The notes below the pieces were generated by a model. That model worked only from the letters and a program-made list of their open reading frames with translations, did not search any database and was not told the DNA's origin. From Nemertoderma westbladi (Eukaryota; Animalia; Xenacoelomorpha): a stretch of DNA of 52,291 nt. Both the position numbers and the translations under genes were made by a program. Of the stretch, positions 4,204-25,002 are shown piece by piece. Location of the stretch: positions 1-52,291 of the forward strand of contig JAUCBJ010000210.1 in NCBI GenBank assembly GCA_032718475.1, given 5' to 3'. Each line of letters starts with the position of its first letter. Position 1 is the first letter of the stretch.

Positions 4204-4299
4204 TTGGAACGCCTACGCCCGGTGTGGGAGAATCCTCACGAAGGATCCTCCCACGTTGTGTTGTTTTTAGGTTTACATAAGAACCGCATGGAAGCGGTC

Positions 4300-4455
4300 C
4301 ACCTCGCAGCCGCCTAGCCACCCTCGCAGCTAGTCACGCAGTCAGCCTCGCGGTACGCAGTCAGCCTCGCAGCCAGCCTCGCGGCACGCAGTCAGCCTGG
4401 CGGTCGGTCACGCAGTCAACCAGCCAGCCACGCAGCTAGGCACGCAGTCAGCCTG
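4300..4455 (+). repeat. degenerate short tandem repeat (cacgcagtcagcct-like) downstream of the TBP-like gene
   Basis: repeated cgcagtcagcct / cgcagccagcc units. Confidence 0.75.
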
Positions 4456-4561
4456 TGAGAGTCATACTTATTCAAACGAGGTTAGTTTTCCCTATCTACC
4501 GATAGATTGATTGAAAAATAATAATGTTTAATTTTCACCTTCTAATCACCAACACCTAAAG

Positions 4562-5095
4562 TTACAACACCATAACACCAAACATTAATAAATAATTAAC
4601 AAGTTTACTAAATATAGGGTAATAAATGTGAAATTTGCTAGGTGAACACATTAAAGTACATTTACCAGTATGAAAGCAGCAAATGACTACGGTATTATTT
4701 ATTCTTATTTTGCAATTATTAAAAATTTCAGGTTCATATATAACTTGAAGTTGCACATTATCAAAGACAACATAAAACCCGGTATTGTTTATCAATAACC
4801 TATAGACTACAGACTTAATACTAAAAATATAAGTACATAAATTAACAGATTTTAAAATCAAATTAATACTAGTTTTATCAAATATATGCTTTTTTACTTT
4901 TTGGAAATTATACTTACTGCCTAATAATGTAATACGACCATTTTTAAATATTAATAATGTGGCACTAAATATCTTATATATAAACTGATTTGGTTTGAGT
5001 ATGTGTTTACCAGATAATTGATTTTTTAATTCTTTAAAATTAATCACTGACACTTGCTGGCAACTTACATTCTTATTAACTATCTGATAGTTCAT
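4562..5095 (-). CDS. divergent TATA-box-binding protein (TBP)-like protein
   Basis: Two TBP half-repeats: ATLLIFKNGRITLLGSK (cf. LIFSSGKMVCTGAK) and YEPEIF...CCFHTGK (cf. YEPELFPG...LIFVSGK); 177 aa, core-domain size; intronless. Confidence 0.8.
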   Translation of the reverse strand: MNYQIVNKNVSCQQVSVINFKELKNQLSGKHILKPNQFIYKIFSATLLIFKNGRITLLGSKYNFQKVKKHIFDKTSINLILKSVNLCTYIFSIKSVVYRLLINNTGFYVVFDNVQLQVIYEPEIFNNCKIRINNTVVICCFHTGKCTLMCSPSKFHIYYPIFSKLVNYLLMFGVMVL

Positions 5096-8000
5096 TGTTT
5101 GGCTCCCGATAAATAGGTATATTGTTTTTCTTTACAGGTTTCTCAACCTTTGTTTGATAGTGACCCCAGGGAAGCGAATGATTTTTATTAACCCAATAAA
5201 GTTTATCGTCAAATGCGCTGAGAGCAAACTTATCTCGTGCTACAGTGTACACTTTGTGTAATTGACTCTGAAATTGGTGCGTTTCCTTGGAAATTTCTAA
5301 GTTATCCTTATATGCTCTTAAATAATCTTCGTGGCAAATATTTTTATCCACGACAGCTCTTGTTATTCCTTTCGCCCGTCGTATATTGGAATCATTCCAT
5401 TCCAAAATTGAATATAATTTTGGTCTTAAAAATACTGCTTGTTTAATCTCTCGTGAGGCTAGTTCATCTTTACAGTAATAGAGTCTGGATTTATTTTTAT
5501 CGCTATAGAGAGGGTGATCCTTGGGGTAATTGGATGTATCTAAAATATTATTTTTAATTAAGGCTTTTAAAAAATTATTCTGCGATGTATTATAGTAACA
5601 ACCTATTAAAGAGTCCGTATCTGATGCTACAATTTCAATTCGACAGTTTAATTCTTTCTCAATAGGTAGCAATTTATCGTAATACAGCTCATACATATCC
5701 AATTTAGCCAAGTCCAAGACAGTACTACCTACATAGACCGGCTTATCGAGAGTTACAGAGTCTTTTACTAATAAGTGTCCCGATAAGGAATCATTATAAA
5801 TCATGAAATTTTCGTGATTTATACGTTTGACTAATAAATCGCATTTCTCTTTACTATTAGCGATACGAAAGTTGCATCTGTCCCTTATCTTCTCTATCGT
5901 TTTTCCAAATAACGAATTATTCAGAAGCTTCGCAACAGCTGTTTCAATGTAAGTTTTTGACTGTCGCCTTTGATTAATATTAAAATCTATATAGGGTTTA
6001 AATACAAAGTCTTGATGGAAAGAATATAATTTATGGAGCTTAGTAACAATTAAACCTTGTTTTATATAAAATTTTAACAGTTTTAAATTTACATGATAGA
6101 ATTCCTTATCGAATTGTGTCAACATAAGTTTTGGAGCACACATCTTATAATTGCTATTAGTACCTCTTTGTTTACAAACATGATTATATTGTTCCCTCAT
6201 ATATGGTGAAAGCATTGTCTCATTTATACTTAAATGTTCTGGGGCTAAGGGTAGTTCTAATGTACGATCATGAATATCTTTGGGATATTTCAAATCGCAA
6301 ATTAAGAAAAACCCAATATCCCCTTCAGTATCAAGATTTGTCAAATAGTTTATTAGTTCTTCTGGAGCAGCATTCTCTAAATATGTAACGTTGACTTGTT
6401 CAAAACCTGAAACAGGTAGCTTTTTACTTAAATTACCCGAATACAAGGAATTAAAATCTATATTGAAAATATGACACTCTTCCTTGCTTGGATCATAATT
6501 ATCAGTATCTGGTATATTTGATTCTATGTAATGCTTTCGACAGAATGAAACCCCACCTCTAATAGATGCTTCAAAATCTCTATATGTTTGGTAATCTTTT
6601 ATTAATGCTAACTTACATTTATTGTATTTCAGGGCGCAATCATAAGTGAAAGCTGCGATACTACAATAATAAACTACTTCTAATTCGTAGTTTTGTCTAC
6701 ACACTCTCCTAAAGTTCTCAAATATATCAGCGAGGAGACAAACATCGAGTTTTAAGTATGCTAAAAGATAATCCTTGAGATTTGTACACTCAAACTGACT
6801 CCATGATGCGTTGGCAAAACTATATTCCTCGGGAGTACAGGTATTTTGTGTTAATTTACTATAAAATTTGTCTATTGATGGTAATTTCGAATCATTGAAT
6901 TTATTTAAATCTGTCAGATACTCGTAGGGAAATATACCTTTTCGTTTAATTGTTGCATTATTTAAATTTGGATAAAAATATTTCATTTGCTGTTCAGTAA
7001 TTGGTAGAACTGATGTTATATCCTCGCTGTCTATATCCTTTGTTGAACAATCAACTAAAGTACTTAGGGAAAAGGATAAAAATTGATATGTGTCTAAGAC
7101 ACGTAGCTCGATCTTAGTTTTTTCATCTTTCACCGGTATATGCATGCTTAGTGAAATATACCTTTCAGAATTTTTAGGGATTACCTTTATATCCCAATCG
7201 GAATATCTATTGTTGGTAAAACCAACTTGTAAAAGAAAATGCAAATCGTAGTGATTGCAGTTGTGTGCAGCGAGTATATACATGTGTCGTTTCAACGATA
7301 AAGAGCGGTTACATGCGTTACAAGCGGCTGCTATATAGTTACCAGTAATATGTGAGTGATGTTTATTTTTCTCAGACTTATCCTTAAATAAAACATTGCA
7401 ATAAAAGCAAGTTTTAGCTTTCCAAAAACTTAACTTATCTACATCGTTAAGTATAATCTTCTCTCGTGTATGGGTTTCTGCCCACTTATATAATTGGGTG
7501 ATGTCATTATATACAGAGTCTAAAAAGTCTTGAATACAGTTGTTGTCGATTGTTTTTGTAAAGGTCTTCAAATAAAATTTTGGTGGATTGATTAATTCAC
7601 TACTAGGAACAATTAAATAACTTACAGCGCATGGAATATGATTCTGAATAAATTTACTGTTGGTGGCTGGCTCCAAAATAGATTCTATGTCAAAATATAT
7701 TACAAACAATGCTGGTAATGTTCTGTCTAAATTTCTAAAGCTAATGTGAGTTCTTTTTTCAGACGGTAGCTTCTCAACTTGACTTTTTCCTCGATAACAA
7801 GCAAGACGGTGACGTTCTAGAACATTTCTGTAGAAATGCGACAAACACCGTTCGCAATATTTCCTACATCTAATATGCTTACCTGTTGTATTCATCAAAC
7901 GATTCAAGTTAGTTATGCAAACATAATGTGATTGTTTACTCGTATTCTTATTTTTTACAAGTAATATATTCAATAACTCTTTATCTGGAGTGATTTTACT

Positions 8001-9086
8001 AAATGGAGCCTGTCTTAATATAGATACTCGATTGTTGTCGTAGAGTAATAAATTAATTATATATGCTGAATTCTGTTTTTCAAAAAGTTTAATTGCAAGC
8101 TGCCATTCTGTTGGATAATCATTTTTCCCATTGTGAAAAATGAAATGACTCATATAATTTTTGTACTGCGAAGTACGATATTTGTTGTTCTTCACTTTGC
8201 TACTAAATTTTGTGGCTATAATTGCCCATTTAAAACAATCATTATCAGCCGTTTGTATATTTATAACACATCGTTTACTCGATAGAGCCTTAGGTAACTC
8301 CATATAACCGTGACCTTTATATTCCAGTGACTTACACTTGGATTCAGCTACTTTAATTTCCACTATTAATAAAGATTTAACGCGCCACCCTGAGCCACGA
8401 GTGTTAAATATGGCTATTTTTTGCATTAATTTTTCTAGTACATACTCAAACCATGTGTCAAAACTTTCATGTGAATCTACGGTATTAACTGAACCACCTG
8501 GAGAACTAAAATAGAAAGTTTCTTCTTGGTCACCCTCTGAAAAATGTGATCGATACATGAGTATATTCACACCTAGCCAGGGTCTAAGTACATTCATTTC
8601 GCTAAGTTTTCCTAATAATAAGTTTTTAATATGGGGTAGAATATGAACTATTGATGAATGAATATCAGGAAAATCTTCATCATTCGGAAGATTGTAAACA
8701 TAGATTTCTAAACGGTTATCGTGTGCGGATCGTTCGATGCTAAAAATTGATGGACCTTGACCAGATTTCAGTCTTTTTCTAGATGCTACAGTATTGTTTT
8801 GGTTCCGTTGTGGTCTAACATGATAATAACGTTGGTGACAGTCGTGACGTAAATAATTCTCATATAAATACTCTTTATTACAAGTAGGGAAAGTTTTTTC
8901 ATACACGCAAAGCTTCATTTCTTTACATCCCGTAGTTGATTCATGTCGTTTGCATATTTCTTCACGTGAACATTTCACATGACAATTAAAACAATTGTAT
9001 TCTTCAAAATGCGACTTCAGATGAGATAAATAGTTATGTTTAGAAATTTGAAGAGGACAAAATGGACATTTCAATTGTTTATCCAT
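5076..9086 (-). CDS. protein-primed-type family B DNA polymerase (Polinton/Maverick/Adintovirus-like) with N-terminal zinc fingers and an endonuclease-VII-like insert
   Basis: Uninterrupted 1336 aa; GSGW, exo motifs YFDIES, HN...YDLHF, YLKLDV; pol motifs DFNSLY, KLLNNSLFGK, SDTDS, RPKLY, AKG; N-terminal CxxC...HxxxH. Confidence 0.93.
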   Translation of the reverse strand: MDKQLKCPFCPLQISKHNYLSHLKSHFEEYNCFNCHVKCSREEICKRHESTTGCKEMKLCVYEKTFPTCNKEYLYENYLRHDCHQRYYHVRPQRNQNNTVASRKRLKSGQGPSIFSIERSAHDNRLEIYVYNLPNDEDFPDIHSSIVHILPHIKNLLLGKLSEMNVLRPWLGVNILMYRSHFSEGDQEETFYFSSPGGSVNTVDSHESFDTWFEYVLEKLMQKIAIFNTRGSGWRVKSLLIVEIKVAESKCKSLEYKGHGYMELPKALSSKRCVINIQTADNDCFKWAIIATKFSSKVKNNKYRTSQYKNYMSHFIFHNGKNDYPTEWQLAIKLFEKQNSAYIINLLLYDNNRVSILRQAPFSKITPDKELLNILLVKNKNTSKQSHYVCITNLNRLMNTTGKHIRCRKYCERCLSHFYRNVLERHRLACYRGKSQVEKLPSEKRTHISFRNLDRTLPALFVIYFDIESILEPATNSKFIQNHIPCAVSYLIVPSSELINPPKFYLKTFTKTIDNNCIQDFLDSVYNDITQLYKWAETHTREKIILNDVDKLSFWKAKTCFYCNVLFKDKSEKNKHHSHITGNYIAAACNACNRSLSLKRHMYILAAHNCNHYDLHFLLQVGFTNNRYSDWDIKVIPKNSERYISLSMHIPVKDEKTKIELRVLDTYQFLSFSLSTLVDCSTKDIDSEDITSVLPITEQQMKYFYPNLNNATIKRKGIFPYEYLTDLNKFNDSKLPSIDKFYSKLTQNTCTPEEYSFANASWSQFECTNLKDYLLAYLKLDVCLLADIFENFRRVCRQNYELEVVYYCSIAAFTYDCALKYNKCKLALIKDYQTYRDFEASIRGGVSFCRKHYIESNIPDTDNYDPSKEECHIFNIDFNSLYSGNLSKKLPVSGFEQVNVTYLENAAPEELINYLTNLDTEGDIGFFLICDLKYPKDIHDRTLELPLAPEHLSINETMLSPYMREQYNHVCKQRGTNSNYKMCAPKLMLTQFDKEFYHVNLKLLKFYIKQGLIVTKLHKLYSFHQDFVFKPYIDFNINQRRQSKTYIETAVAKLLNNSLFGKTIEKIRDRCNFRIANSKEKCDLLVKRINHENFMIYNDSLSGHLLVKDSVTLDKPVYVGSTVLDLAKLDMYELYYDKLLPIEKELNCRIEIVASDTDSLIGCYYNTSQNNFLKALIKNNILDTSNYPKDHPLYSDKNKSRLYYCKDELASREIKQAVFLRPKLYSILEWNDSNIRRAKGITRAVVDKNICHEDYLRAYKDNLEISKETHQFQSQLHKVYTVARDKFALSAFDDKLYWVNKNHSLPWGHYQTKVEKPVKKNNIPIYREPNNELSDS

Positions 9087-9632
9087 CTCTTTATTATCCT
9101 AAAAACAATTTAAAATTAATATGAATATTGTTATATATATATAATCAAAAAAATTCATAAGCTACTCAACACAAATAAAATATAATATCTAAACTTTAAT
9201 TAATTTAATATTTTCAGAATGAGCTCGATTGAATCAGTTGAGCTCTTTATATATATTTCAAGTTTCTACTTATACCAATCAATCATAAATAACAGTTACA
9301 TTGGGAACTAACATCATAAATAAAGTTGCTTTTACAACTGAATTCTTTATAATAAAATTAAGTCTAAACCAAGATGTACATAATGCGTTTTTAATTTTCA
9401 TTGATAAAGTAGGTTTTACATGCTAATGTTTTATTATGGTGGTGTAAACTCATGCATTTACATGCGAATGTTTTATACATAATCCCGTGCTCACATTAAA
9501 CTATCACCAATATTTACTCTATAAAGTCACCTTTACATGCAAATACTTTATAATAATCATGCTTTATGTTAAAAAGTTACCTTTACAAGTCAGTGTGAAA
9601 CTGAAAAAGAAAAGTCTCTAGTTAATAATAAA

Positions 9633-10676
9633 TCAATCTGATACTGCTTTTATATGTTCCTTATTGTAATCTGCTACCTCTTCACTTGCTTTTGTAACTT
9701 TTATTTTCTTTGTAGGTATAGAATCATTGTTGGGAATGGAAGATGTTTGAGATGTAGATCTGCGCTTTCTATCACTCGATGTCTCTTTGATGTATGTCTT
9801 TGGATTAAATGTGGATGAAACTACTTCTGGAAATGACTTATTAACCTTAAACTTCCAAGTTGGTTGATATAGAATCGTGAAACCGTCTGCTATATCAGTT
9901 GATGAAACCTTTAACATCATATCGTAGAGAAACTCTATATGTGGTATGTCTTTATCGTAATGTAACTGTAAATATTTGCTTTCCTTGTCTGCAATAATTA
10001 CTTTTTTTTCTTGTACATTTATTTTTACTTTAAGTCGGTCAGATAAAGCTTTATCGCTCGTATCTAGCTCTGAAAAGACACCTTCGTTACTAATTTCATA
10101 ATTCCATTCATACCACAATGAATTTACTTCTGATGCTGTTAAGTTAAACCCATTATAATACCTAAGACCAATAGCATCAGAATATCTAGCTGAAATCTCC
10201 CATAGTCCCATATAAGTCGTTCCTTTATATTTGCTTACAAAACCAACAAAAGATGGGTTGGTTAAATTAACAACAGAACACTGATTTATTATTTCGAGTG
10301 GTGGTGATAACAATTCTAATATTTCTGTCTTACTCTGAAGCAATAAATTAATGAGTGATTTGTTTAGAATTTGACATTTGCCTTGCTTCTGAATATATAC
10401 ATTTTCAGTAATAACACAGGTGGAAATATTTAACTTTCCTCTTGTAAATTCTATATTAGGATAAATATTACCTCTTGAAACTGATGATTCCTTTTGTCGG
10501 TTGATTAATATTTCTAAGACGTCTAGAAGGTAGAGTGTATCCCAGTAAGAGAAGCACGTTGTTACATTGCTATCACTTGAGTGTAATATAAAGTACTTGC
10601 CATAAACAATACTACAGGTATATTTATTACATGTAAATTTCCAAGTATTGCTTGAAGTTTTTTTAAATAAATCCAT
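9633..10676 (-). CDS. 347-aa protein with a PC4/Sub1-like ssDNA-binding motif and basic C-terminal tail
   Basis: aa ~143-187 FVSKYKGTTYMGLWE...NGFNLTASEVNSL resembles PC4 VRDFKGKVLIDIRE...KGISLNPEQWSQL; RKRR and KKIK near the C-terminus; same strand and AT-richness as the polymerase. ORF is solid, domain call tentative. Confidence 0.6.
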   Translation of the reverse strand: MDLFKKTSSNTWKFTCNKYTCSIVYGKYFILHSSDSNVTTCFSYWDTLYLLDVLEILINRQKESSVSRGNIYPNIEFTRGKLNISTCVITENVYIQKQGKCQILNKSLINLLLQSKTEILELLSPPLEIINQCSVVNLTNPSFVGFVSKYKGTTYMGLWEISARYSDAIGLRYYNGFNLTASEVNSLWYEWNYEISNEGVFSELDTSDKALSDRLKVKINVQEKKVIIADKESKYLQLHYDKDIPHIEFLYDMMLKVSSTDIADGFTILYQPTWKFKVNKSFPEVVSSTFNPKTYIKETSSDRKRRSTSQTSSIPNNDSIPTKKIKVTKASEEVADYNKEHIKAVSD

Positions 10677-11496
10677 AATTAGAATGAAAACTATTTTGAA
10701 AAATAAAAACTAAATAAATGATTATTAAAATGTAAAACTTCTGTTTATATGGTTGCTTTAATACAACAGAGTGACTTACAGTGAGGAATATAGTAGCTTT
10801 GTGTAACAGATGCAACGTGTACAGCTAAAATTATTACATTAGCGTGAGTTAGAGAGTGAAATAGCAGTAACGAGTAACAGATGCAACGTGACCAATGTTA
10901 GTCCTATCAATCTAACTTATATTCAACTTAGTTGACTGACCAGTCACATCGATAAAAGAAATCGATTATTATTAATAGTCGAATTAATGTATTCTATGCT
11001 ATAGTAATTATGATAAGGGACTAGATGCTATTTATAAACATCTGCTACCAGTGATGAAGATGAAGAATTCAATGACTATGGTATAACTCATATATTTATT
11101 GCCTTTTTCTCTCGAGGTTGGATGGAAAAGTGAGTTGAGAAATGTGGCAAAACACTAGGGTACAGCAACGTGGACAAGTAGCGAGTGGGAGGGTGGATAG
11201 GAATTCATTGAGTTGACAACAATCAATCAATAACAAACAACACTAAAGAGAGAGAGGGAGAGAAAAAGTGAAAGGAAGAGTAACCATCATAGCTACGGTA
11301 GGTATACGATAGGATGGTTAGGTTAGGCTACGTACTGTACAGTACAATATCATATCATATCAATCATCGATTGAATATTTTGTTATAACTCGGATATTTA
11401 TCGCCTTTTTCTCTCGTGGTTAGATGGGAGAGTGAGTGGCGAGTTGTGGGGGGTTATATTGGTCCCGAGTTCGAATCCGGTTGAATATTTTGTTAT

Positions 11497-11866
11497 CTGA
11501 AAAATTGCGATTTGAAAAATAGTAGAAATTACCTATAGACACCCTAGCGTCTGTAAAATAAAGGTTGGTGAATACGAAAATACTGGTTGCTGAAAAATAG
11601 CGAAAATGAAAAATAGTAGACGTTACCTGTAGACACCCTAGCGTCTGTAAAATAAAGGTTGGTGAATACGAAAATACTGGTTGCTGAAAAATAGCGAAAA
11701 TGAAAAATAGTAGACGTTACCTGTAGACATCTCTAGCGTCTGTAAAATAAAGGTTGGTAAATATGAAAATGCAATGGTTGCTGAAAAATTGCGATTTGAA
11801 AAATAGTAGACGTTACCTGATGCTAAGTGTAGACACCCGAACACCTGTAAGATAAAGGTTGGTGAT
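11497..11866 (+). repeat. ~94-bp tandem repeat, about 4 copies
   Basis: unit tgaaaaat.gcga...tagtagacgttacctgtagacaccctagcgtctgtaaaataaaggttggtga; starts near 11498, 11591, 11685, 11782. Confidence 0.9.
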
Positions 11867-12125
11867 TGGAGGAAGGAGTAGCGAGGGGGACTAATAACGC
11901 CTCTAGCGGAATATGCGGGATCTTGGGAAGTTACCATGGTAACGGTTGAAATGCTGACATCTGATTGGTTGAAATAATAACGACCACTGCTAATGGTTGA
12001 AATGGTGGCTTCTGATTGGAGGAAGGAGTAGAAATGGATGGTAATGATGGGCTATGGGTGACCATGTGCGGAGGGGCTAGCATCCTATACTACTGCTGGG
12101 TCTATTCACCCCCGCCTCTCCCTCT

Positions 12126-12273
12126 ACTACTGCGTGGCCTACCAGGCCCACCTCGGGTTGGCTCAACCCCGCTACCTCCTGCCTACCAACTACGTGGCCT
12201 ACCAGGCCGCCGTCGGGTTGGCTCAACCCCGCCACTTCCTGCCTACTAACTACGTGGCCTACCAGGCCGCCGT
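12126..12273 (+). repeat. ~60-bp GC-rich tandem repeat, about 2.5 copies, with internal palindromes
   Basis: cgtggcctaccaggcc x3; cgggttggctcaaccccg x2. Confidence 0.85.
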
Positions 12274-12570
12274 CTGCCGGGCTATACACATCTGACGCGT
12301 TCACATTAATAGCACCATTCCCAATATTATTTGTTAAGTCGATTAAATTATTAGAATTTGAAACGGGATTATTATTTAAATTATTTAAATTAGAATTATT
12401 ATTATTTTCAAAATTTAAATTATTATTCGAATTATTTGGATTATTCTGAATATTTGGATTAATATTATTATTTGAATTTAAATTTAAATTACTACTACCA
12501 GGTAAAATATTATTTGCTGCAATAAAGGGATTAGGGTTATTTACTACGGTACTATTAATACCAACATTTC

Positions 12571-13536
12571 CTAACGTACTACTACTACCCCCCCCCCCCC
12601 CCCCCCCCCGCCCGTACGGTTACTGTACGTACTGTACGTGTACCGCACGCCCTGTTCTTTTGCCTCACGCTCTTCGCATTCACTCTCTTGCTCCTTCCCT
12701 CTCCCCATTATCCGGTCTAATTCTTTCACCCTTAATTTATATGCCAGATTTATCTTCCGCATCCGTCTTTCTTTTGCGGAGGATGTAGCAGACTTATCGG
12801 TTGCGACGGACTTCCGCCGCCCCTCCGTCCTACTAACTTTCCCCCGCTTTCCGGGGTTCTCGCTGACCGACGAGACCGAATCCTCGGAGCTAACCTCGGA
12901 TTCGCCCTCGTGCGGTCCCGCCCAACCCACTAACTTAACTTCCCTGGCATCGACTAAGTATGGCCCTATGTACACTGCACCAGGCCCCATACCCCTACGT
13001 TCCCATAGCCCAAACAGTTCGATGGCAACCCCTCTCGCTCTCTCGCTGGCTAGTTCTCCCTGCCCAGAACGCACTAGGTAATCAAAGTATCTGTTCGACT
13101 CACCTAGTCGTCTCCTCAACTTCACCTGGTCTATCTCAGCCCCTTCTTTGGCTTCCTTCAGTTGCTCCCGGGTCGCGGCGTAGGCTCGTCGGAGCCGGAT
13201 GACCCCGACGTCCTCGTCGCCGACATCTCCTTTCTCCCTCCGGGTCCGGCGTTGTACCGTCGGCTCCACTGTTGCCGTTCCGGTGGGCCGTTCGTCGCTC
13301 TCGGCCTGTGGCTGGCCGGCGACATCGGCATATCGACCGCCGCCCTGTGTCGACTCGTCTCTCTCCTCTCCCAACTCGTCCTCTCGCTGTAGACGGCCCC
13401 CCTCGTCTCGGATCGCCGGATGGCCCTTTCTCGATGGGTCCGGCATTGTGGGTTTATACCGTCTAGTCGCGGCCTCGCGGATCGTTAGATCGCCGTCCGG
13501 GGTCCGCGGCGGTGTCGTCTCTCCTGACTGACTCAT
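12571..13536 (-). CDS. 321-aa charged, low-complexity ORF of unknown function
   Basis: ATG-initiated ORF in a GC-rich block, R/E/G-rich; the end runs through a poly-C tract; no recognised domain. Confidence 0.4.
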   Translation of the reverse strand: MSQSGETTPPRTPDGDLTIREAATRRYKPTMPDPSRKGHPAIRDEGGRLQREDELGEERDESTQGGGRYADVAGQPQAESDERPTGTATVEPTVQRRTRREKGDVGDEDVGVIRLRRAYAATREQLKEAKEGAEIDQVKLRRRLGESNRYFDYLVRSGQGELASERARGVAIELFGLWERRGMGPGAVYIGPYLVDAREVKLVGWAGPHEGESEVSSEDSVSSVSENPGKRGKVSRTEGRRKSVATDKSATSSAKERRMRKINLAYKLRVKELDRIMGRGKEQESECEEREAKEQGVRYTYSTYSNRTGGGGGGGGVVVVR

Positions 13537-14232
13537 CTCGCTGGGATGTGGTGGCTAGTCTCCAACCACTGAGTTTAACTAGGGCGGTAGCTCTGATTCA
13601 ATCACTGTGACGGGATCCACGAAGGATCCCGGTTTATCCGGGTTGTCGATCTACGCGTCCCCGCCGTGTGTGAAAGGTAAAAAGAGTCTGCGTTGTTCGT
13701 CGTATATAATGTTCGGGCATATAGATAGATATAGATAATATATTGTAATGTAAAGCTGTGAATAATAGTATATGGAAGGCGGGAGATGGTGATTGAAGTC
13801 CCTGTACTTCCCTAGCTAAACTAACCTAACTAGCACCAAATAACACACTGAGATAACTGATTGCTGGTGCCTAATAATATACTGCACGGTTTGGCCTTGC
13901 TACAGTACCTAGCCGATGCTTCCCCCCCATTGGCTAATATCCCTGTTGGCGCCCTTTGGAGTGTTCCCATTCACTCCAGCTATTCTCTCTCTGTTAGGGG
14001 TTTGGCCCCTGACCTTTATTGTTCGTTTCTCCTTCCCACTTTATTGGGGTGACACGAGGTTGATATTGGTAATCAACCTCGTGCTCCCAATATTGCTTAA
14101 CGGCTCACTTTATGGGGTGTTAGCGGAATTGATTCGCTAACAAGGAAAACAAGGAAAAACAGAAAGGGGAAAAGAGGGAAAAGGGAAGAAAAAAAGAAAA
14201 AAAGAAAAAAATGTGAAAACATTAGACATATT

Positions 14233-14518
14233 TGTAGAGACTCTTACGTTCTAGTACTGTATGTGGTGACGGGAGTGAAGGAGGATTACCGAAAACTACA
14301 GTATTTGGAGTCTGTCAGTCAGTTGTTAGATTATTATGTACTGGTACGGTAGGATTCAGCTAGTATGATAGTACAGTAGTACGGTGTCAGACAGAGAGTT
14401 ATGTTATTCGGGAGTACAGGAGTATATATGTTATTCTTATCTTATTACATATTATATTAGATATGACTGTAGGAAGATGAGTGTCATTATGATATGAGGC
14501 GGGAGAGGGTGGTTTACA
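14233..14518 (+). repeat. 5' LTR (286 bp)
   Basis: tgtagaga...tttaca; 2 mismatches against the 3' LTR by eye. Confidence 0.95.
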
Positions 14519-14621
14519 ACTTCCCACCGAGATTAGCGACTCGACTACACTTACGGACCGCGTGGAAATTTAAATAGGCCTACCTACCGGACTGGTAGAA
14601 ACATTTTTTTTTAAAAACACT

Positions 14622-16198
14622 ATGGCGATGGCGAACAATTACGGGTTGAAGGAAGTCCTGGAAGGGTTTACATATGATCAGTTACGGGATATCACTCGGG
14701 ATATCGGCGGCGATATTAGCGGATTACAGAAGCAAGATTTAATCTCGTTTCTTGTCGGTCAACCTCGGGATTTATTGTCTCAATACGGTATAGGATTTCG
14801 GGATTCGAGACGAGGTGGCGATCCAGGCGGTGGAGGAGCTGGTCCAGTCGGAAATGTTATGTTAGAGAACATTTTACAACAGCAACAACAACTGATTTCA
14901 CTGGTCCTAGATCAACAACAAACACAAACACACGCTCTTACTAAAGTGATGTCGGACTTTGCTGCTACGGTTGCAAACAATTCGGAAGTTCATGATCGGG
15001 ATAAACCACCGAAACCGATGTTGCGTCCACTGAAGGAAGATGACGACATTGAACATTTCTTAATTCTCTTTGAACGGACGGCGAAGCTCCAGGGTTGGTC
15101 GAAATCGGTCTGGGCGACACAACTTGGAGGTCGGTTAACGGGAAAGGCGTTAGCAGCGTTTTCATCATTATCTGGGGATGAAGCAGATAATTACGACTTG
15201 GTTAAAGCAATTATACGTGCGCGGTACGATATTAACATGGAAGCACTACGGCTGCGGTTTAGACAAGATAGGAAAAGGATAGCGAATCACACAGTGAATT
15301 TTCAGAGCGGATTAGAGAAACTTTCCGACGATGGGTTCAGGAACAAACTCTCGATGTTGGGGAAGAGGAAATTTCGCTGGAAGAACTCATTTTAATGGAA
15401 CAGTTCTTAGCATTCCTTCCTCAGAATTTACAGGTCTGGCTCAGGGATCACAAACCTCGTAGCCTCAGCCAAATAGCGAGCCTTGCTGATGAATATGCGT
15501 CAGCGAGACGATACCCGACGGATCCTTCCCGTTTCAATCGGAACAGAAACTCAAATAACTCATCTAATCCACACAGTTACGGTAATATCAGACATAATAA
15601 TTGGGGTAATAACCAGTACAATCGCAATAGTACTGGTTCCAATAATAATACCAGTACTGGTACGGATAGAAGTCAACAGAATCGGTTACCTTTTTGTAAA
15701 GTTTGCGACTCAATGGGATTTCGAAATCTATTTCATTGGAAGGAGCAATGTCCTCGAGATAAACTGTACGGGCCTAACAGTAATAACTGGACAAATACAC
15801 GGAGAAATATGGATAATAATGGTAGCGGAGGTGGGGGAGCCCCGAATAGACCAAATACCGGTAGTAATCCCTCAGGACGGCCTACTGACACCAATGGTAA
15901 TTATTCTAATAACGGAGTACCAAGACAGCAGGGAAGCGCAAATCCTGTAATGCGGAAAGTAAACCCAACAATATTAAATGATTTATTTGGTGATATTGCG
16001 GTTGCTAGTGGTAGTTCAAACCCTAGACTTGGTCCTAAATGTGTATATAATGTTCAAATTGGGGATTCCGTTTTTCCAGCTTTGATCGATTCAGGCTCAC
16101 AAGGAACCCTAGCTTCAGTGAATACAGCAAAGAAAATTATTGCGGCGGCAGGAACAAAACGTACAGATGTTTATACAGGTCCCATATGCTTGAGTTAA
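14622..16198 (+). pseudogene. gag: Gypsy gag (SCAN-like capsid domain, zinc knuckle) and start of protease; frameshifted near 15275
   Basis: DDIEHFLILFERTA..W; EQFLAFLPQNLQVWLRDHKPRSLSQIASLADEY (SCAN-like); CKVC..H...C; ALIDSGS protease. Confidence 0.88.
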
Positions 16199-19100
16199 AG
16201 TCAGCGACACAAGACAGGTTAGATATTTGTGCAAGATTTTCGGTTTTAGTGACAGTTGATAATGTTTCCTCACATACAGAAATTTCTGTTGTTCAAAACT
16301 TTGACCAGGACTTTGTGATTGGAACAGATTCGTTTGAAGGGCTGGGAATTCATATTTCAACAGTAAAAACAGTTTTAGTTGGAGAAAACATTTCAAATAA
16401 TTTGTCATATATGGCTATGAATAAAGTATCTGAAGTTGTTAATAGGTGGCGTTCCCTAGATTCTCAAGATAATGTAATGAATATGGGACGGGGTGAGAAT
16501 GTTGGTACTTGTGCGTTATTGGCTGGGAAACAAATACCACCTTGTAGTACAAGTATGTTGAAGATTAAAGTGAACAATTTTAATTCCAATGGGAATTCAA
16601 AGTTATATTTATTTGAACCTAATCAAAGTGTTTTGGAAGATCTTGGATTATCTTCCAGTAATGCAATTATTCAACCAGAAACAGATGGTTATGCGCGGGT
16701 CGGAGTGTTAAATTTAGATAAGTTACATAAAGCGATGCCAGAAGGTATTAATGTTGGAACATGTGTACAACTTGATGCGGCTGAGATAAAATCTGTTTAT
16801 AGCGACAACTTAGCGGAAGGTGTTACAGCACTTATCACAGATAAAGGTGAAAGGGAGATTGAGTTAGAAAGTCATGTTGATTTTACAGACTCTGATCTTA
16901 ATTAGGGTGAAAAAGATAGTTTATTAAAACTTCTTAAGGAATATGATGATGTATTCCAGTTATCGGATGATGAAATCGGTAGAACTGAAATAGCAGAACA
17001 CGACATTGACACTGGCAACAGCAGTCCCTTCAAACAGGGTGTCCGTCGAATCCCTGAGAAACTCAAAGAAGTAGTGGCAATGGAGGTTAATAGAATGCAT
17101 AAAATGGGAGTTATTAGACCAGCTCACGGACCTTGGTCTTCACCTATCATATTGGCACCTAAACCGGATGGATCTATTCGATTTTGTGTCGATTATCAGA
17201 AATTAAACGCCATTACAACTAAAGATAACTTCCCATTACCCCGTACAGAAGAAATATTGGATCAACTTGGATCATCAAAATATTTTTCTTGTTTAGACCT
17301 TGCCAGTGGATATTGGCAGCTTCCACTAACGGAGGAAGCTATTCCAAAAACGGCATTTGCATGTTCAGCGGGATTCTACGAATTCATTGTTTTAGCGTTT
17401 GGACTGTGCAATGCGCCAGCAACGTTTCAAAGAACAATGGAGAAAATACTTAAAGATGTGGTAGTAAATGGAAGAAAACCATGCTTTGTCTATATAGATG
17501 ATGTACTTGTTTGTTCACCGGATTTCGATAGCCACTTGGAAGATGTGGCAGCAGTATTAAATCGGCTACGGGAGGCAAATTTAAAACTGAGAACTCGAAA
17601 GTGCAAGTTTGGTAGATCTAAAATTAAGTTTTTAGGACACATCGTTACACGAAACGGACTACTTCCAAATCCAGAAACTGTAGACAAAATCATAAACTTT
17701 CCAGAACCAAAGAATCTAAAGGAACTTCGACGTTTTCTGGGATTATCGAATTATTATCGAAAATTTATAGAAGGATACGGAAAGATTGTCCGACCTTTGA
17801 CCTCATTATTAAAGAAAAATACGGCTTATTGCTTTGGGATGGACCAACAATTGAGTTTTTGTGAAGTTAAAGAACGGTTAATTACAACACCAGTATTGCG
17901 TTACCCAGATCATTCAAGACCATTTATTTTAGAAACTGACGCTTGTGAAACCGGATTTGGGGCTGTTTTATCCCAGATAGCTGATGATGACAGTCAATTA
18001 CACCCAATAGCATATGCTTCAAGACAGCTGACAAACTCTCAACAACGATATACTTCAACCCAGTTGGAGGTATATGGAATTAAATGGGCTTGTAATCATT
18101 TCAAACCATATTTATATGGAAGAGCCTTAACAACATTGGTTTACACGGATCACGCAGCAATAAAAGGATTACTTTTGGGTCGTCATGAATTAAAAGGCCC
18201 ATTGGCACGTTGGGTGATAGATCTAACTGATTATATTTCGCCCGAGAATGTTTTCCATAGACCGGGTAAAGCTAATACGAATGCAGATGTTTTATCTCGA
18301 ATGCACGGAACTTGTACTGCTGTTAATGACGGGCCTGAGAGTTTATCTGAATCAAAAGAAGAGACAGAGATAAAGTCGGATACCGAAACAAACTTAAAGG
18401 AAGAGACATATGTTATACAAAGTCTACAATTGGTAGACCCTTTATATAAAGCATTAATTGACTATCATCAAATGGATGCGTTACCTGATGATGAAGATTT
18501 ATTTCGCCAAATGTCAACCAAAAGAAACTTGACAGCAGTAATAGATGGATTGCTTTATAAATTTGATGATATTGGAAAATCACGCCAACCTCGTTTGGCA
18601 GTACCAGAACTTTGGAGACATAAAATACGGTCAGAAGTACATGGAGGACGGTTTGGGGGACATTTATCAGATCATCGGATATGGTCTATACTAAAATTAC
18701 AATATTGGTGGCCAAAAATGCGAAAGGATATTTTCAAATGGACTCATTCATGCTTGAAATGTGCTACTCGGAATCCGGGACGTGCAAATAAACCGCCATT
18801 AATGCCCTTACAAGTAGAGGGGCCATTCGATCGAGTGGCAATTGATATACATTCGCTCCCATTAACCCAGAGAGGAAATAGATATTGTGCAATAATCAGT
18901 GATTACTTGACGAAATGGGTTGAGGCCTATGCAATACAAGATGAAAATGCAACAACAATTGCTGATTGTTTTGTTGATTATATATCTCGTCACGGTGTTC
19001 CACGGAAAGTTCTTTCAGATCGGGGAGCAAACATTTTATCAGAAGTATTTACAAATGTGTGTAAATTATGTGGAATGAAAAAGATCAACACCAGCGCTTA

Positions 19101-19730
19101 TCATCCCCAGACAGATGGTTTAGTAGAGAGATTTAATCGAACATTGTTATCCATGCTTTCGAAAACTTTGGATCGACATGAAACGGATTGGGATGATGTT
19201 TTATCTTGCTTATTATTTGCTTATCGGACTTCGGAGCATAGTTCTTCAAAGGAGTCACATTTTTACTTACTCTACGGGAGAGATGCTAGATTACCAACAG
19301 ATACAGCTCTGAATTCCACAAAAACTATTTACCAAATAGATTTGGATGATTATAAAACTGAACTAGCCGCGAACCTTACATTTGCATGGTAACTTGCACG
19401 GGAAAACATTGAAAAGAAACAAGACCAATATAAGAAGCAATATGACAAGAGAACTCAACCAATTAAATATAACGTTGGTGACAGGGTATTTTTATACTGT
19501 CCAGATACAGTGAAAGGAAAATTACATAAATTCGGTCGGCCATTCCATGGTCCTTATCGTTTATTAAAGGTCACAGGGAATAATGCTGAAATTCGCTTGG
19601 TTGACCATCCAGCCCCAGTTAGTTGCAATTGAGCGGCTAAGACCTTGCAAACCAGAGATCGAAAATACATCTTTTACTGGAGATAAAAGGAAATATACTC
19701 GACGTCGCCCTGAGGCCAGGGCTTGTTTGC
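16186..19730 (+). pseudogene. pol: Gypsy pol (RT, RNase H, integrase, GPY tail) with in-frame stops at 16903 and 19390
   Basis: RFCVDYQKLN, LDLASGYWQ, YIDD, ETDAC, TDH, HHCC zinc finger, SDRG, DGLVERFN; FHGPY after the 19390 stop. Confidence 0.95.
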
Positions 19731-19745
19731 AAAGCGGGGGGGATG

Positions 19746-20031
19746 TGTAGAGACTCTTACGTTCTAGTACTGTATGTGGTGACGGGAGTGAAGGAGGATT
19801 ACCGAAAACTACAGTATTTGGAGTCTGTCAGTCAGTTGTTAGATTATTATGTACTGGTACGGTAGGAGTCAGCTAGTATGATAGTACAGTAGTACGGTGT
19901 CAGTCAGAGAGTTATGTTATTCGGGAGTACAGGAGTATATATGTTATTCTTATCTTATTACATATTATATTAGATATGACTGTAGGAAGATGAGTGTCAT
20001 TATGATATGAGGCGGGAGAGGGTGGTTTACA
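19746..20031 (+). repeat. 3' LTR (286 bp)
   Basis: near-identical to 14233-14518. Confidence 0.95.
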
Positions 20032-21259: not shown

Positions 21260-22450
21260 ATGGCAATGGACCCACGCAACCACCACATCTTCGTCCTGCG
21301 CAGCTCCCCACCCGCATTCGACATCGAATCCGAAAGGACAACTTGGGAACTATGGAAAGATGAATGGGACGCCTTCCTCGCCACCTCGGGTCTTCTCAAC
21401 CTGTACGTGTCCGACCCGGCTACACCTCCAGTCGCCGTTGTAACCGAATACCTCAACCGATCCACTCTACGTCTACACCGCGCTGCCCTCACAACAGCGT
21501 TCTCTCGCGCGACTAACGCCGTCGTCAAGGGGCTCGCCCTTACCGCAGCAGAAAACGCGAACTCGGAGACCGTGATTAACCGGTTGGGTCAGCACATGGA
21601 CGGCGGAACCAACAAACGCGTTTACCGTCAACATCTGGCCCGACGCCACCGTCTTCCGGAAGAGAGTCCGGAATCGTTCCTCGTTGCTCTACGCGATATA
21701 GCTACCAAGTGCGACTTCGCCCCAATCGCAACCAAGGAAGCCCACACGGAGGACCGCCTCCTGGACCAATTCACGTCCGGATTCGTCGATAAGGAGGTTA
21801 CCGAGCAACTTCTTCGGCTTCCTAACGATTCCACCCTTGGCGACGCACTCCGACTAGCACAAGCCATCTGGGCAACCCGCAAAGACGCGGCATCCCTTGC
21901 CCACCCCTCGCCCATTCCTTCTGCAGTCACCAGTCGCATCGGAGCGACACTGCGACGCATGCAGCCACCGCCCAAGGAACGGTCGAACTCGAAGTGCCCG
22001 CAATGTGGATATCCCCCTCACCTGGCAGGCAAACGTTGCCCGGGTGCTGCGGCGCACTGCCGGCACTGCAACCTGGTCGGCCACTACGACCGCATGTGCC
22101 GCAACCGCCCCACTCACAACCCAAAGACAAACTCAACCGATTGGGTACCAGACAATGCCCGGAATGCCCCAGAGTCCGCCAGTCACGCCCAAATATGGTC
22201 GACAATCCTGGAGGGACTCGACTTTGGAGCCATCCCAGCCGTCTCCGCGACCGAGAGACTCGAATCCCTAGAGACAGTGACCATCGGATTCCAGGTCACC
22301 AAGAACCCCTCACACGGAATCCCCGAACTCCAATTCCTGCCTGATTCTGGAGCTAATGTGTCCACTATCCCATGGCGAACCTTCAGGGCGTTCGGTGGTC
22401 GCCTCGAGAACCTCCGCCACCCCGACGGCGAACCAATGACGAACCACTGA
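21260..22450 (+). pseudogene. gag: Mag-like gag with two zinc knuckles plus aspartic protease start
   Basis: WELWKDEWDAFL; CPQCGYPPH...CPG...CRHCNLVGHYDRMC; LPDSGANVS. Confidence 0.85.
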
Positions 22451-22833
22451 GACTCCGATACCCCCCAGGTCCCCCACCTTGCCAATGGGAGCCGCGATGG
22501 GTGGTCGCTTAAAGGCATATTTAACGCCACACTTCGATGCGCCACCCTCGGAACTGTCTGCACTACAGACCTGTGGGTTCTCGATGGACTCCAACAGCCT
22601 CTCCTCTCCCGACGGGCGTGCTTCACCTTGGGCATCCTGCGGAGCCCGATACTCCGCGGTGGCGACCTCACGGCGACAACGAACTACTCATATTCAGAGC
22701 AAACCAAGCCCACTGCAATGCCGTTACCAACCAAAGCCACCAATAATACGGCGCCGACTGGGCCAGCCATCGCCCCGATAGCGCCGGTTACCCCCCCCCC
22801 TCTACCGTTCCACAAGCCACCACCATACCCCCA

Positions 22834-24102
22834 GTGGCGTCCGTCAAAGCCGACTGGGAAGCGCTCGAACGCCGCTTTCCCCGCCCACTCTCAGGGCAGT
22901 GTCGCATAATGACCGGCGGGGAAATAACAATCAAACTCATCCCTGGCGTCCGACCTAACCAATGCTACACTAATCGAACCATCCCCGTCAACATGGAGGC
23001 GGCATTCAACCAGGAACTCGACACCCAGATCGCTATGGGTATACTGGAACCCGCCGGAGACGAGAATAACCCGGGCGAGTGGCTCAGCCCGATGGTCGTT
23101 ACACGCAAAAAGAGCAACCCCAACAAAGTTCGCATAACGGTCGATCTGCGCGAACTTAATAAAGCTACGGTTTGCCCGAGCTACTTCTCCGACTCCCCAT
23201 TCCACGTCGTTTCCAAAATCCCAACCTCGGCCCGGTACTTTACCGTCCTCGATGGCCTGAAGGGCTTCCACCAGGTGGGTCTTGACCTTGCCAGCCGCCG
23301 CCTCACTACCTTCGCCACCCCACGTGGCCGTTTCCGCTACCGGCAGATGCCCATGGGGTGGCACGGAAGCTCGGATGTGTTCAACGCGAGGATGGCCCGA
23401 GCACTCCATGGGATTCCCGACATCGGACGGATCGTGGAGGATGTCATCATCCACACGGAGACAGCCGAACAACACCCGGAAGCAGTCGCTCGCGTTCTAG
23501 CCGCCTGCAATGCCGCCAACATATCTATAAACACGGACAAGCTACCTCGAGGAGGCTACCTCGTCAGTCACGGCAACTACCAGATCGACCCATCCCTCAC
23601 TGACGACCTCCGTAACTTTCCGGTTCCAACCAACCGTCGCGAACTTCGGTCCTTCCTCGGCCTCGCACAACAGTTGGGAAACTCGACTCCGGAGATTTCC
23701 CAACTCGTCGAGCCACTGCGCAGCCTCAATACGGACCGCACCACCTGGGTTTGGCTGCCGCAACACCAGACCGCCTTCGAGTCCACCCGATCAGCGCTAT
23801 CCAGCCCACTCTACCTCTCCGGCTTCCACCCCGACAGGAAAACCGAACTGCTGACAGACGCCTCTCGACTCAATGGCCTTGGATTCCTCCTACGCCAATG
23901 GGACCCGACTCCAAACCGCTGGCTGACCATCCAGTGCGGCTCTCGGACCCTCGCCAAACACGAGGCTAACTGGTCCGGGATGGCCGAACTGGAGGCCCTC
24001 GGAGCGGCCTGGGCGGCACACAAGTGCCGCTACTTCCTGGATGGGCTAAACCACTTCGACCTCGTCACAGACTGTAGCCCCCTCATACCCATCCTGAATG
24101 AT
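22834..24102 (+). pseudogene. pol: RT-RNase H fragment; the ORF tail after ~24102 is read-through into unrelated DNA
   Basis: VRITVDLRELNKA, LDGLKGFHQV, MPMG, IVED (YxDD position), LTDAS, ELE, LVTD. Confidence 0.85.
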
Positions 24103-24104
24103 AG

Positions 24105-25002
24105 GGGCTGTTGCGCTATACCGAATAGACCGATGGTCGGCGGGGTTGCTGTCCCCATGACTGAGGCTGCATTACAAACCAAAATTGCCATCTCCAGGCG
24201 CTGGAGCAGAAACTGGCGTGACTGTGGTTCGTGGGTGGCACTGTGGAGACGAGCCCCGATCTCCCGGGGGAAGGTGGATGTCTCTGGACCGGGGCGGCCA
24301 AAGGTCTCAAAGCAACGGGGTGAAAGAAATGGCCCCGGTCCATTAGGTCGCGATACTTAGAGTTTTTAATGCGCTCCGCCCTCTGCCCCCTCAGCTGAGT
24401 GCCCCCCGCCGCGCCAATGATGGTTTGTTGAAGGTGGCTGGGGGCCAGTGGATCTATTAATAATTATCGCAAAGATATGATAAGGTAGGCCTACGTGATA
24501 TTAGTTTCTCAAACCAAAGCTATCCATCCATTGACGTCCAAATATATCCAATTTCTCAATCCATACTAATCACTATGTAATAATGTACACTGTAATGCAA
24601 TAATGTCAATGTCCAACCAAACAATGAGTTGAGTGTTATCAGACCAGCCTCCGAGAAATGTTAGGCTAACGGCACCTCGCTCTGTCGCATCAGTTTTTGT
24701 AGTGGTCTAGTTCCAAGTTCCAGGCTACCAGAATCCGTTAGTGGATGATATAGAATCTGCACATCCTGACATCTGTGCAACTCCTGAACTCAGGCGAGCA
24801 TTTTACAGATGGTGGTCGAATTTATATGGTCTTGTACCGCGAAACCGTGTATTATTTACAGATGTAGGCTAAATTTTGGGTCTTGTACCGTGCACAGTAC
24901 TGGTGGTCCTACACAGCTACTGCTATTTTGCCTAATACAGGTCCCAGAGGTAAATCCTTAACCCAAGGGCTGTTACCTCTCTGACTGACAGCGCAACAGC
25001 CC
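24105..25002. mobile_element. possible non-autonomous TIR element at the Gypsy truncation point
   Basis: 13-bp inverted ends gggctgttgcgct / agcgcaacagccc; no TSD found. Confidence 0.35.

What the first reader, a model, noticed from the sequence alone, without database searches (positions are those of the whole stretch)
4562..5095. Element-encoded divergent TBP retaining candidate DNA-intercalating phenylalanines
Both TBP half-repeats are recognisable. Phe is present at four positions that plausibly match the intercalating pairs (PNQF, LLIF, PEIF, CCF), while the rest is far from cellular TBP. TATA-like boxes lie upstream of the module genes on the minus strand (tatatataaag at ~9245-9255; catataaac at ~10743-10751). 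Inference: the element could use its own TBP for its promoters, or use it as a decoy or origin-binding factor.
Basis: partly seen in the sequence, partly recalled or inferred. Interest (0 to 1): 0.75.

Follow-up and report, generated by a model that had tools for sequence, protein, structure and literature searches.

The report
Maverick's own re-tuned TATA-binding protein
A many-copy, virus-like Maverick-type element carries an intact, strongly altered version of the cell's TATA-binding protein, with three rather than four of its DNA-bending phenylalanine positions kept, which likely reads the element's own promoter word and likely recruits the host's transcription machinery, although no capsid or integrase gene was found in this window.

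Summary
The ORF is a real TBP homologue: Pfam TBP E 9e-9, predicted saddle matching solved TBPs (TM up to 0.76, Z 14.9). The four-Phe claim is wrong. The F99 column holds Pro35, invariant in 16 of 16 context-checked members, so only F50, F125 and F141 are intercalator positions. The gene overlaps the tail of an intact protein-primed polymerase, and 15 of 85 polymerase-related loci carry the same Pro-type TBP; the longer ones are Mavericks/Polintons. It groups with them, not with cellular TBPs. The family is many-copy with a synonymous excess (23 of 39). In relatives, integrase and virion genes share strand-specific upstream words (ATAAAC, TTAAGC or TTAYGC) that follow TBP subgroups. Here the TATA before the polymerase is chance-level; the box before the orphan ORF matches ATAAAC weakly. 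No integrase, capsid or terminal repeat was found in the window. A 2021 figure legend labels such a gene, and this scan noted Maverick TBPs on other DNA.

The parts
4562..5095 (-). TBP-like ORF, 177 aa, Pro-type Maverick TBP; 24% GC; overlaps the polymerase stop by 20 nt
4991..4993 (-). Pro35, at the column of intercalating F99 of yeast TBP; Pro in 16 of 16 context-checked members
4946..4948 (-). Phe50 (F116 column), kept
4721..4735 (-). E121-P-E123-I-F125: both TFIIB-contact glutamate columns plus the F190 column
   Evidence: role of the glutamates from PMC7221094 passages
4673..4675 (-). Phe141 (F207 column), kept
5076..9086 (-). [quoted passage not shown]
   Evidence: (330 homologues at E<=1e-10, many with PF03175/PF02945); motif names are recalled
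9245..9255 (-). TATA-like string 159-169 nt before the polymerase ATG; chance-level
9633..10676 (-). Orphan ORF, 347 aa, covered by the same many-copy family; no family match
10742..10751 (-). YATAAACA-type word about 72 nt before the orphan ATG; same word as in relatives L014, L018, L051; weak on its own

Best explanation
This is an intact TBP-fold gene sitting directly behind the protein-primed polymerase of a Maverick/Polinton-derived, many-copy element, and its protein likely binds a non-canonical, element-specific promoter word and likely recruits host TFIIB and RNA polymerase II to element genes. Shown: homology, predicted saddle, Pro at the F99 column, three other Phe and both TFIIB-contact glutamate columns kept, grouping with Maverick TBPs, synonymous excess among copies, and strand-specific upstream words in relatives. 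Inferred: that the TBP itself reads these words, that host TFIIB is the partner, that the system works as a late-gene switch, and that the ATAAAC-type box before the 347-aa ORF is a target. The window's copy is probably a truncated one whose integrase and virion genes lie outside or are lost.
For: 15 of 85 polymerase-related loci carry a Pro-type homologue; of six long ones annotated, all have an rve integrase and an ATPase-cluster gene, five a putative capsid gene. Window TBP scores 57.3 bits on the Maverick profile built without it, 28.9 on a cellular profile. Cellular TBPs form one side of the tree at 98/98, window on the Maverick side; AU p 0.044 against joining it to 8 eukaryote-type TBPs. 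Its polymerase lies in the FastTree clade (support 100) that holds all 12 Pro-TBP loci in that tree. Words 15-100 nt before ATGs: ATAAAC 8/12, 7/15, 7/11 in L014, L018, L051; TTAAGC 8/11, 7/14, 5/8 in L041, L043, L044; TTAYGC 4/12 in L030; sense against antisense 25:2 of 46, 24:1 of 46, 6:0 of 17. The word is missing before the polymerase in L018, L043, L030 and present before integrase and (where held) the putative capsid gene. The window's 21 DNA-face columns match the L014/15/16/18 group best (10-12 identical, against 8 for L051, 6-8 for the other-word groups, 7-9 cellular). E186 and E188 columns kept in 15 and 16 of 16; no TFIIB-like gene in the window or these loci, whereas L062, which has one, changed E186. 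Synonymous share 23 of 39 listed coding differences against about 0.20 expected; TBP 4 of 6. Precedent: herpesvirus TBP mimic on TATT late promoters (PMC12529657 passages).
Against: No binding or expression data. The words were first seen by eye on the same loci, and TBP subgroup, host and word share ancestry: only two or three independent lineages. Mavericks without a detected TBP can also have a shared upstream word (L061 CTGAGA 6/13, L064 CACTGA 4/10). L080 has a Pro-type TBP but 0 of 5 genes with ATAAAC. ATAAACA resembles a Forkhead site (recalled), so a host factor could read it. In the window only one of three genes has the word, and the supposed late genes are absent. The window protein is the longest branch (2.4-3.0 changes per column), AT-skewed, and departs at columns fixed in relatives (G216 column in 15 of 15, P191 column in 14 of 15). 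The synonymous count uses 39 of about 700 differences, picked by the tool as best supported. The AU result is marginal, and no labelled animal TBP or TRF2 was in the tree.
Confidence: 0.57

Rival explanations
1. In this lineage the TBP fold has become a replication accessory: it would bind or bend the element's ends or origin for the protein-primed polymerase, in a small capsid-less replicon of orphan, polymerase and TBP.
For: It overlaps the polymerase tail (L053 shows the same overlap). No virion or integrase gene in 52 kb. All three genes are covered by the many-copy family. Very long branch.
Against: TFIIB-contact glutamate columns are kept. Relatives have gene-oriented upstream words. No terminal repeat found to act as an origin. 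TBP position relative to the polymerase ranges from -85 to +8971 nt in 12 loci.
Confidence: 0.14
2. The gene is a passenger under relaxed selection in a truncated Maverick family; the ancestor used it, this version no longer works well.
For: Longest branch, 47% FYMINK residues, departures at otherwise fixed columns. An 8-base indel in the last codons is in about half the depth at that place in run X1. Virion genes absent.
Against: Open frame; three Phe, both Glu and N69 columns kept; 4 of 6 listed differences synonymous (p 0.014); fold still predicted.
Confidence: 0.15
3. It acts as a decoy that would soak up host TFIIB or occupy host promoters, damping host transcription, while a host factor reads the element's upstream words.
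For: TFIIB-side acidic stirrup kept while the DNA face is remodelled: 5-11 of 21 columns identical to a cellular TBP in the 15 rows shown. ATAAACA resembles a Forkhead site (recalled).
Against: Three intercalator Phe are invariant in 16 of 16, which argues for DNA binding; words change together with DNA-face residues between subgroups.
Confidence: 0.11
4. It is a decayed retrocopy or paralogue (TRF-type) of host TBP that landed beside the polymerase.
For: Highest plain identity in the trees is to a cellular-type row (27-28%, P0185); AU only p 0.044.
Against: Shares Pro at the F99 column with Maverick TBPs; profile score twice as high on the Maverick set; polymerase belongs to the TBP-bearing clade; many-copy with synonymous excess.
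Confidence: 0.03

Closest known systems
TBP-labelled gene in MELD viruses with adintovirus-like PolB (Starrett et al. 2021, PMC8502044; read: passages and parts 2-3 of 6 of the text; preprint 10.1101/697771 passages)
   Same: A TBP-like gene in a Polinton-type element with protein-primed PolB.
   Different: There it is only an abbreviation in a figure legend; I could not see the figure, so I do not know which virus or TBP type. No residue, promoter or tree analysis in the passages seen; the one supplement held as text had no TBP or TATA hit.
Mavericks/Polintons (adintoviruses), e.g. loci L014, L018, L030, L043, L051, L053
   Same: Related polymerase with HNH/EndoVII-like insert and the same Pro-type TBP.
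   Different: The window shows no Maverick integrase, ATPase, protease, capsid or terminal repeat, and has an orphan 347-aa ORF.
Cellular TBP (PF00352; PDB 1ytb, 1cdw, 1mp9)
   Same: Two-repeat saddle; F116, F190, F207, N69, E186, E188 columns.
   Different: Pro at F99; N159 and P191 columns changed; about 18-20% identity; no N-terminal extension.
Beta/gamma-herpesvirus TBP mimic KSHV ORF24 (PMC12529657; passages read)
   Same: Working model: a viral TBP fold reading a non-canonical word before late genes.
   Different: ORF24 needs all four Phe, has extra domains, lacks the TFIIB glutamates and binds Pol II directly; this is a bare core with the glutamates.
TBPs of large DNA viruses (BFVD hits; PMC7221094 passages)
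   Same: Virus-encoded divergent TBP that keeps the L5.1 Phe pair (F116/F207).
   Different: That paper says most pair with a viral TFIIB and have diverged at the adapter site; the Pro-type Maverick group keeps it and shows no TFIIB gene. The words Polinton and Maverick do not occur in its main text.

Membership tests
TBP fold family (PF00352) | Two direct repeats forming a saddle | tested here: met
Canonical TBP | Four intercalating Phe (F99, F116, F190, F207) | tested here: not met
   3 of 4; Pro35 at F99; numbering as in PMC12529657 table
Canonical TBP | Asn pair N69/N159 and P191 | tested here: not met
   N7 kept; Ser95 and Asn126 at the other two columns
Canonical TBP | Two acidic TFIIB-contact residues in the C-lobe stirrup | tested here: met
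   E121, E123
Canonical TBP | Basic N-lobe patch for TFIIA/Mot1/TAF1 | tested here: inconclusive
   Region has 6 K/R in the window, 0-7 in relatives, poorly aligned
Canonical TBP | Binds and bends TATA DNA | not testable with these tools
   needs binding assays
Pro-type Maverick TBP group (defined here) | Pro at F99 column, next to a polymerase of the TBP-bearing clade, grouping apart from cellular TBP | tested here: met
   long-branch caveat
Complete Maverick/Polinton | Protein-primed family B polymerase | tested here: met
Complete Maverick/Polinton | rve integrase, packaging ATPase, protease, capsid genes | tested here: not met
   tblastn of locus ORFs and 25 cluster profiles over the window found only the gypsy integrase; a very divergent gene could be missed
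Complete Maverick/Polinton | Long terminal inverted repeats | tested here: not met
Complete Maverick/Polinton | Target-site duplication | not testable with these tools
   element ends not located; no genome held
Animal TBP paralogues (TRF2/TBPL1, TRF3/TBPL2) | Groups with animal TBP/TRF in a tree | tested here: inconclusive
   No labelled animal TBP or TRF among my rows; F116 column is Phe, not the Trp reported for TBPL1
Herpesvirus ORF24-type mimic | Four Phe, extra N- and C-terminal domains, no TFIIB glutamates | tested here: not met
PC4 (for the 347-aa ORF) | PC4 domain match | tested here: inconclusive
   no Pfam, BLASTP, hhalign or shuffle support; not folded

The most novel reading that the evidence does not exclude
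One Maverick lineage captured TBP once, replaced an intercalating Phe by Pro, and has since re-specified it several times so that each subgroup reads its own promoter word (ATAAAC, TTAAGC, TTAYGC) while still using host TFIIB: a natural series of orthogonal TBP-promoter pairs. The window's family may further be a capsid-less, integrase-less three-gene replicon that multiplied in an animal genome.
Probability: 0.3. Interest if true: 0.8.

Novelty: new variant of a known kind. Interest (0 to 1): 0.55.

Why it matters
How 15-20 kb Polinton-type elements without their own RNA polymerase time their virion genes is open. A bare TBP core with a fixed Phe-to-Pro change and subgroup-specific upstream words gives a directly testable answer. 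It would also show that one of the most conserved eukaryotic DNA-binding surfaces can be re-specified while keeping TFIIB contact. If the window's family truly lacks virion and integrase genes, it would be an unusual kind of self-copying DNA element.

Tried and rejected
Single-sequence searches with the TBP ORF found nothing: word search 0 of 38 candidates, phmmer over 1.84 billion proteins 0, viral contigs 0; relatives came only through the polymerase's neighbours. Single-sequence fold was unusable. PC4 reading of the 347-aa ORF (my resemblance by eye) got no support: (177 and 1068 of 2000 shuffles scored as well); PC4 relatives were not found to build a profile. No terminal inverted repeats. 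Hairpin near 4224-4254 only z -1.9. No RNA holder listed; X5 is only a guessed RNA run with a small share, so nothing is said on expression. Element ends were not resolved: only 4460-10900 was laid, and contig depth is no copy number. My first view that TBP is confined to one polymerase clade was wrong: L062 has a second, non-Pro TBP and had been in the 'TBP not seen' control (0/9 for each word); L021 and L024 in that control are short in-clade contigs, and L024 has TTAAGC in 2 of 3. Rows dropped: TBP tree 72 of 113 rows (partials, four misaligned or broken rows, near-duplicates over 62%), careful tree 31 hand-picked rows; polymerase tree 84 rows from 94 candidates plus the window, missing 3 of the 15 TBP loci. 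Literature: 'Polinton'+'TBP', 'Maverick'+'TATA-box binding'+'protein-primed' (0 papers), 'Polinton'+'TATA', 'adintovirus'+'TBP', 'Maverick'+'late promoter'+'capsid'+'transposon' gave no analysis of this gene, seen as listings only apart from the papers named; TBP and TATA do not occur in the main texts searched. Subscription papers, figures and preprint supplements were not visible and may hold more. No complex prediction was run.

Full report
Observation. The ORF 4562-5095 (-) is open for 177 codons and matches Pfam TBP in two stretches (E 8.9e-9). It overlaps by 20 nt the end of a 1336-aa ORF (5076-9086), which follows a 347-aa ORF (9633-10676) on the same strand. The rest of the window is repeats and retroelements. 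No whole genome is held.

What the neighbour is. The 1336-aa protein has 330 homologues at E<=1e-10, the best 33-36% identical, many with PF03175 (protein-primed PolB) and PF02945 (EndoVII), and named ones from invertebrates and a snake. Exonuclease- and polymerase-like motifs are in frame (motif names recalled). Polinton polymerases with inserted homing endonucleases are described (10.1101/2024.03.18.585575 and 10.1101/2023.08.22.554363, passages).

Finding relatives of the TBP. Direct searches failed. I fetched 85 loci through the polymerase. 15 of 85 carry a homologue, 16-23% identical. Six long ones were annotated: all have an rve integrase with chromodomain and a gene of the ATPase cluster, five a putative capsid gene, some a protease or PLA2-like gene. 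They are Mavericks/Polintons. A profile search found one more TBP, of another type, in L062. In a FastTree polymerase tree the window lies in a clade (support 100) with all 12 Pro-TBP loci present; the 25 other loci in that clade hold only 4-3185 bases after the polymerase, so most could not show the gene. The window's row is a long branch.

Fold and residues. With the 16-sequence alignment AlphaFold2 gives pLDDT 74. Foldseek's hits at E<=1e-6 are all TBPs, TM up to 0.76; VIA Z 14.9, rmsd 3.4 over 168 residues. Aligned with cellular TBPs, F50, F125 and F141 occupy the F116, F190 and F207 columns. The F99 column holds Pro35, and F38 sits in the V102 column. Pro is present in 16 of 16 context-checked members and 54 of 113 aligned rows, one of which (P0218) is a misaligned cellular row. 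The E186 and E188 columns, which contact TFIIB (PMC7221094 passages), are kept in 15 and 16 of 16. The window alone departs at the G216 column and, with one other, at P191.

Origin. Cellular-type TBPs form one side of a careful tree at 98/98, with the window on the Maverick side; forcing it with 8 eukaryote-type TBPs gives AU p 0.044. Its score is 57.3 bits on a Maverick profile built without it and 28.9 on a cellular one. No labelled animal TBP or TRF2 was available, and the branch is very long.

Copies. Three DNA runs of one organism label hold 32-56% of the sampled words in the runs laid. On 4460-10900, 5402, 1553 and 95 contigs were laid, covering 30 of 30 bins in each. This points to a diversified many-copy family that includes all three genes; depth is not a copy number. 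Of the 40 differences shown (666 not shown), 39 are coding: 23 synonymous, 15 missense, 1 stop when read singly, against 0.19-0.20 expected (p 1e-7); TBP alone 4 of 6 (p 0.014). Some copies have small indels in the polymerase or in the last TBP codons.

Promoters. Earlier scan notes suggested non-standard boxes, so I tested my loci. ATAAAC lies 15-100 nt before 8/12, 7/15 and 7/11 genes in L014, L018, L051 (expected 4-6% each). TTAAGC lies before 8/11, 7/14, 5/8 genes in L041, L043, L044, and TTAYGC before 4/12 in L030. The first two are also the top unbiased 6-mers in those six loci. They are strand-specific (25:2, 24:1, 6:0) and mark integrase and virion-type genes more than the polymerase. 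The groups differ at DNA-facing columns. Against this: few independent lineages, words first picked by eye, L080 lacks the word (0/5), and two TBP-less loci have other shared words. Among the 19 control loci no out-of-clade one exceeded 2/15 for either word. In the window the TATA before the polymerase is chance-level (69% of shuffles). The box before the orphan is the YATAAACA word (2% of shuffles, after the fact), and the window's DNA face is nearest the L014 group (10-12 of 21).

What is missing here. tblastn with the locus ORFs and 25 cluster profiles found no Maverick integrase, ATPase, protease or capsid in the 52 kb, no terminal repeats and no TFIIB ribbon. The copy is either truncated or belongs to a capsid-less family; I could not decide. 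The orphan looked PC4-like by eye, but no test supported it.

Mechanism. Most likely (0.57) the TBP binds a non-canonical word with three Phe and a remodelled face and brings in host TFIIB and Pol II, as a late-gene switch in full elements. Homology, fold prediction, residue states, grouping, synonymous excess and the words are shown; binding, partner and timing are inferred. Rivals: relaxed passenger (0.15), replication accessory (0.14), decoy with host-read words (0.11), host retrocopy (0.03).

Known and new. Virus-encoded TBPs are known from large DNA viruses and herpesviruses. A TBP label appears in a MELD-virus figure legend (PMC8502044), without analysis in the text I saw. The scan has noted Maverick TBPs in other genomes; these notes are leads, not support. 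I found no paper on the Phe-to-Pro signature or the subgroup words in the searches. Verdict: real TBP-fold gene of a Maverick lineage, new variant of a known kind, interest 0.55.

Noticed in passing
L062:7829-8634: A second, non-Pro TBP (Pfam E 9e-12) head-to-head with the polymerase, followed by a 104-aa ORF with a TFIIB-type zinc ribbon (E 1.6e-5, under cut-off), in a Maverick outside the Pro-TBP clade; suggests a second capture of TBP.
   Followed up: partly
L052:6229-6849: A two-domain PC4 gene (Pfam E 1.2e-14) and a Bcl-2 gene (4778-5221) downstream of a related polymerase.
   Followed up: partly
window 7290-7370 (polymerase residues about 572-594): The EndoVII/HNH-like insert has His where 17 of 21 aligned relatives have Asp before the conserved His; four others also have His. 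Pfam match only E 0.045.
   Followed up: partly
window 12571-13536 (-): 321-aa, 60%-GC ORF without a family match, ending in a C/G homopolymer; composition unlike the 24-32%-GC module, probably another element.
   Followed up: no
window 14230-20031: Gypsy-type LTR retrotransposon with 99% identical 289-nt LTRs, a SCAN-domain match and RT, RNase H and integrase ORFs, broken into several frames.
   Followed up: no
window 21260-24360: Second, GC-rich gag/RT-RNase H retroelement.
   Followed up: no
window 49127-50972 (-): DDE_Tnp_1_7 (piggyBac-like, name recalled) transposase split over two ORFs.
   Followed up: no
window 4224-4461 and 11079-12308: A hairpin and GC-rich minisatellite on the left flank; 94-nt and 60-nt tandem repeats and a 69-nt duplicated segment on the right flank; relation to the element's ends unknown.
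   Followed up: partly
L061, L064: Mavericks without a detected TBP share another upstream word (CTGAGA 6/13; CACTGA 4/10); L001, L003, L065 show canonical TATAWAW enrichment.
   Followed up: no
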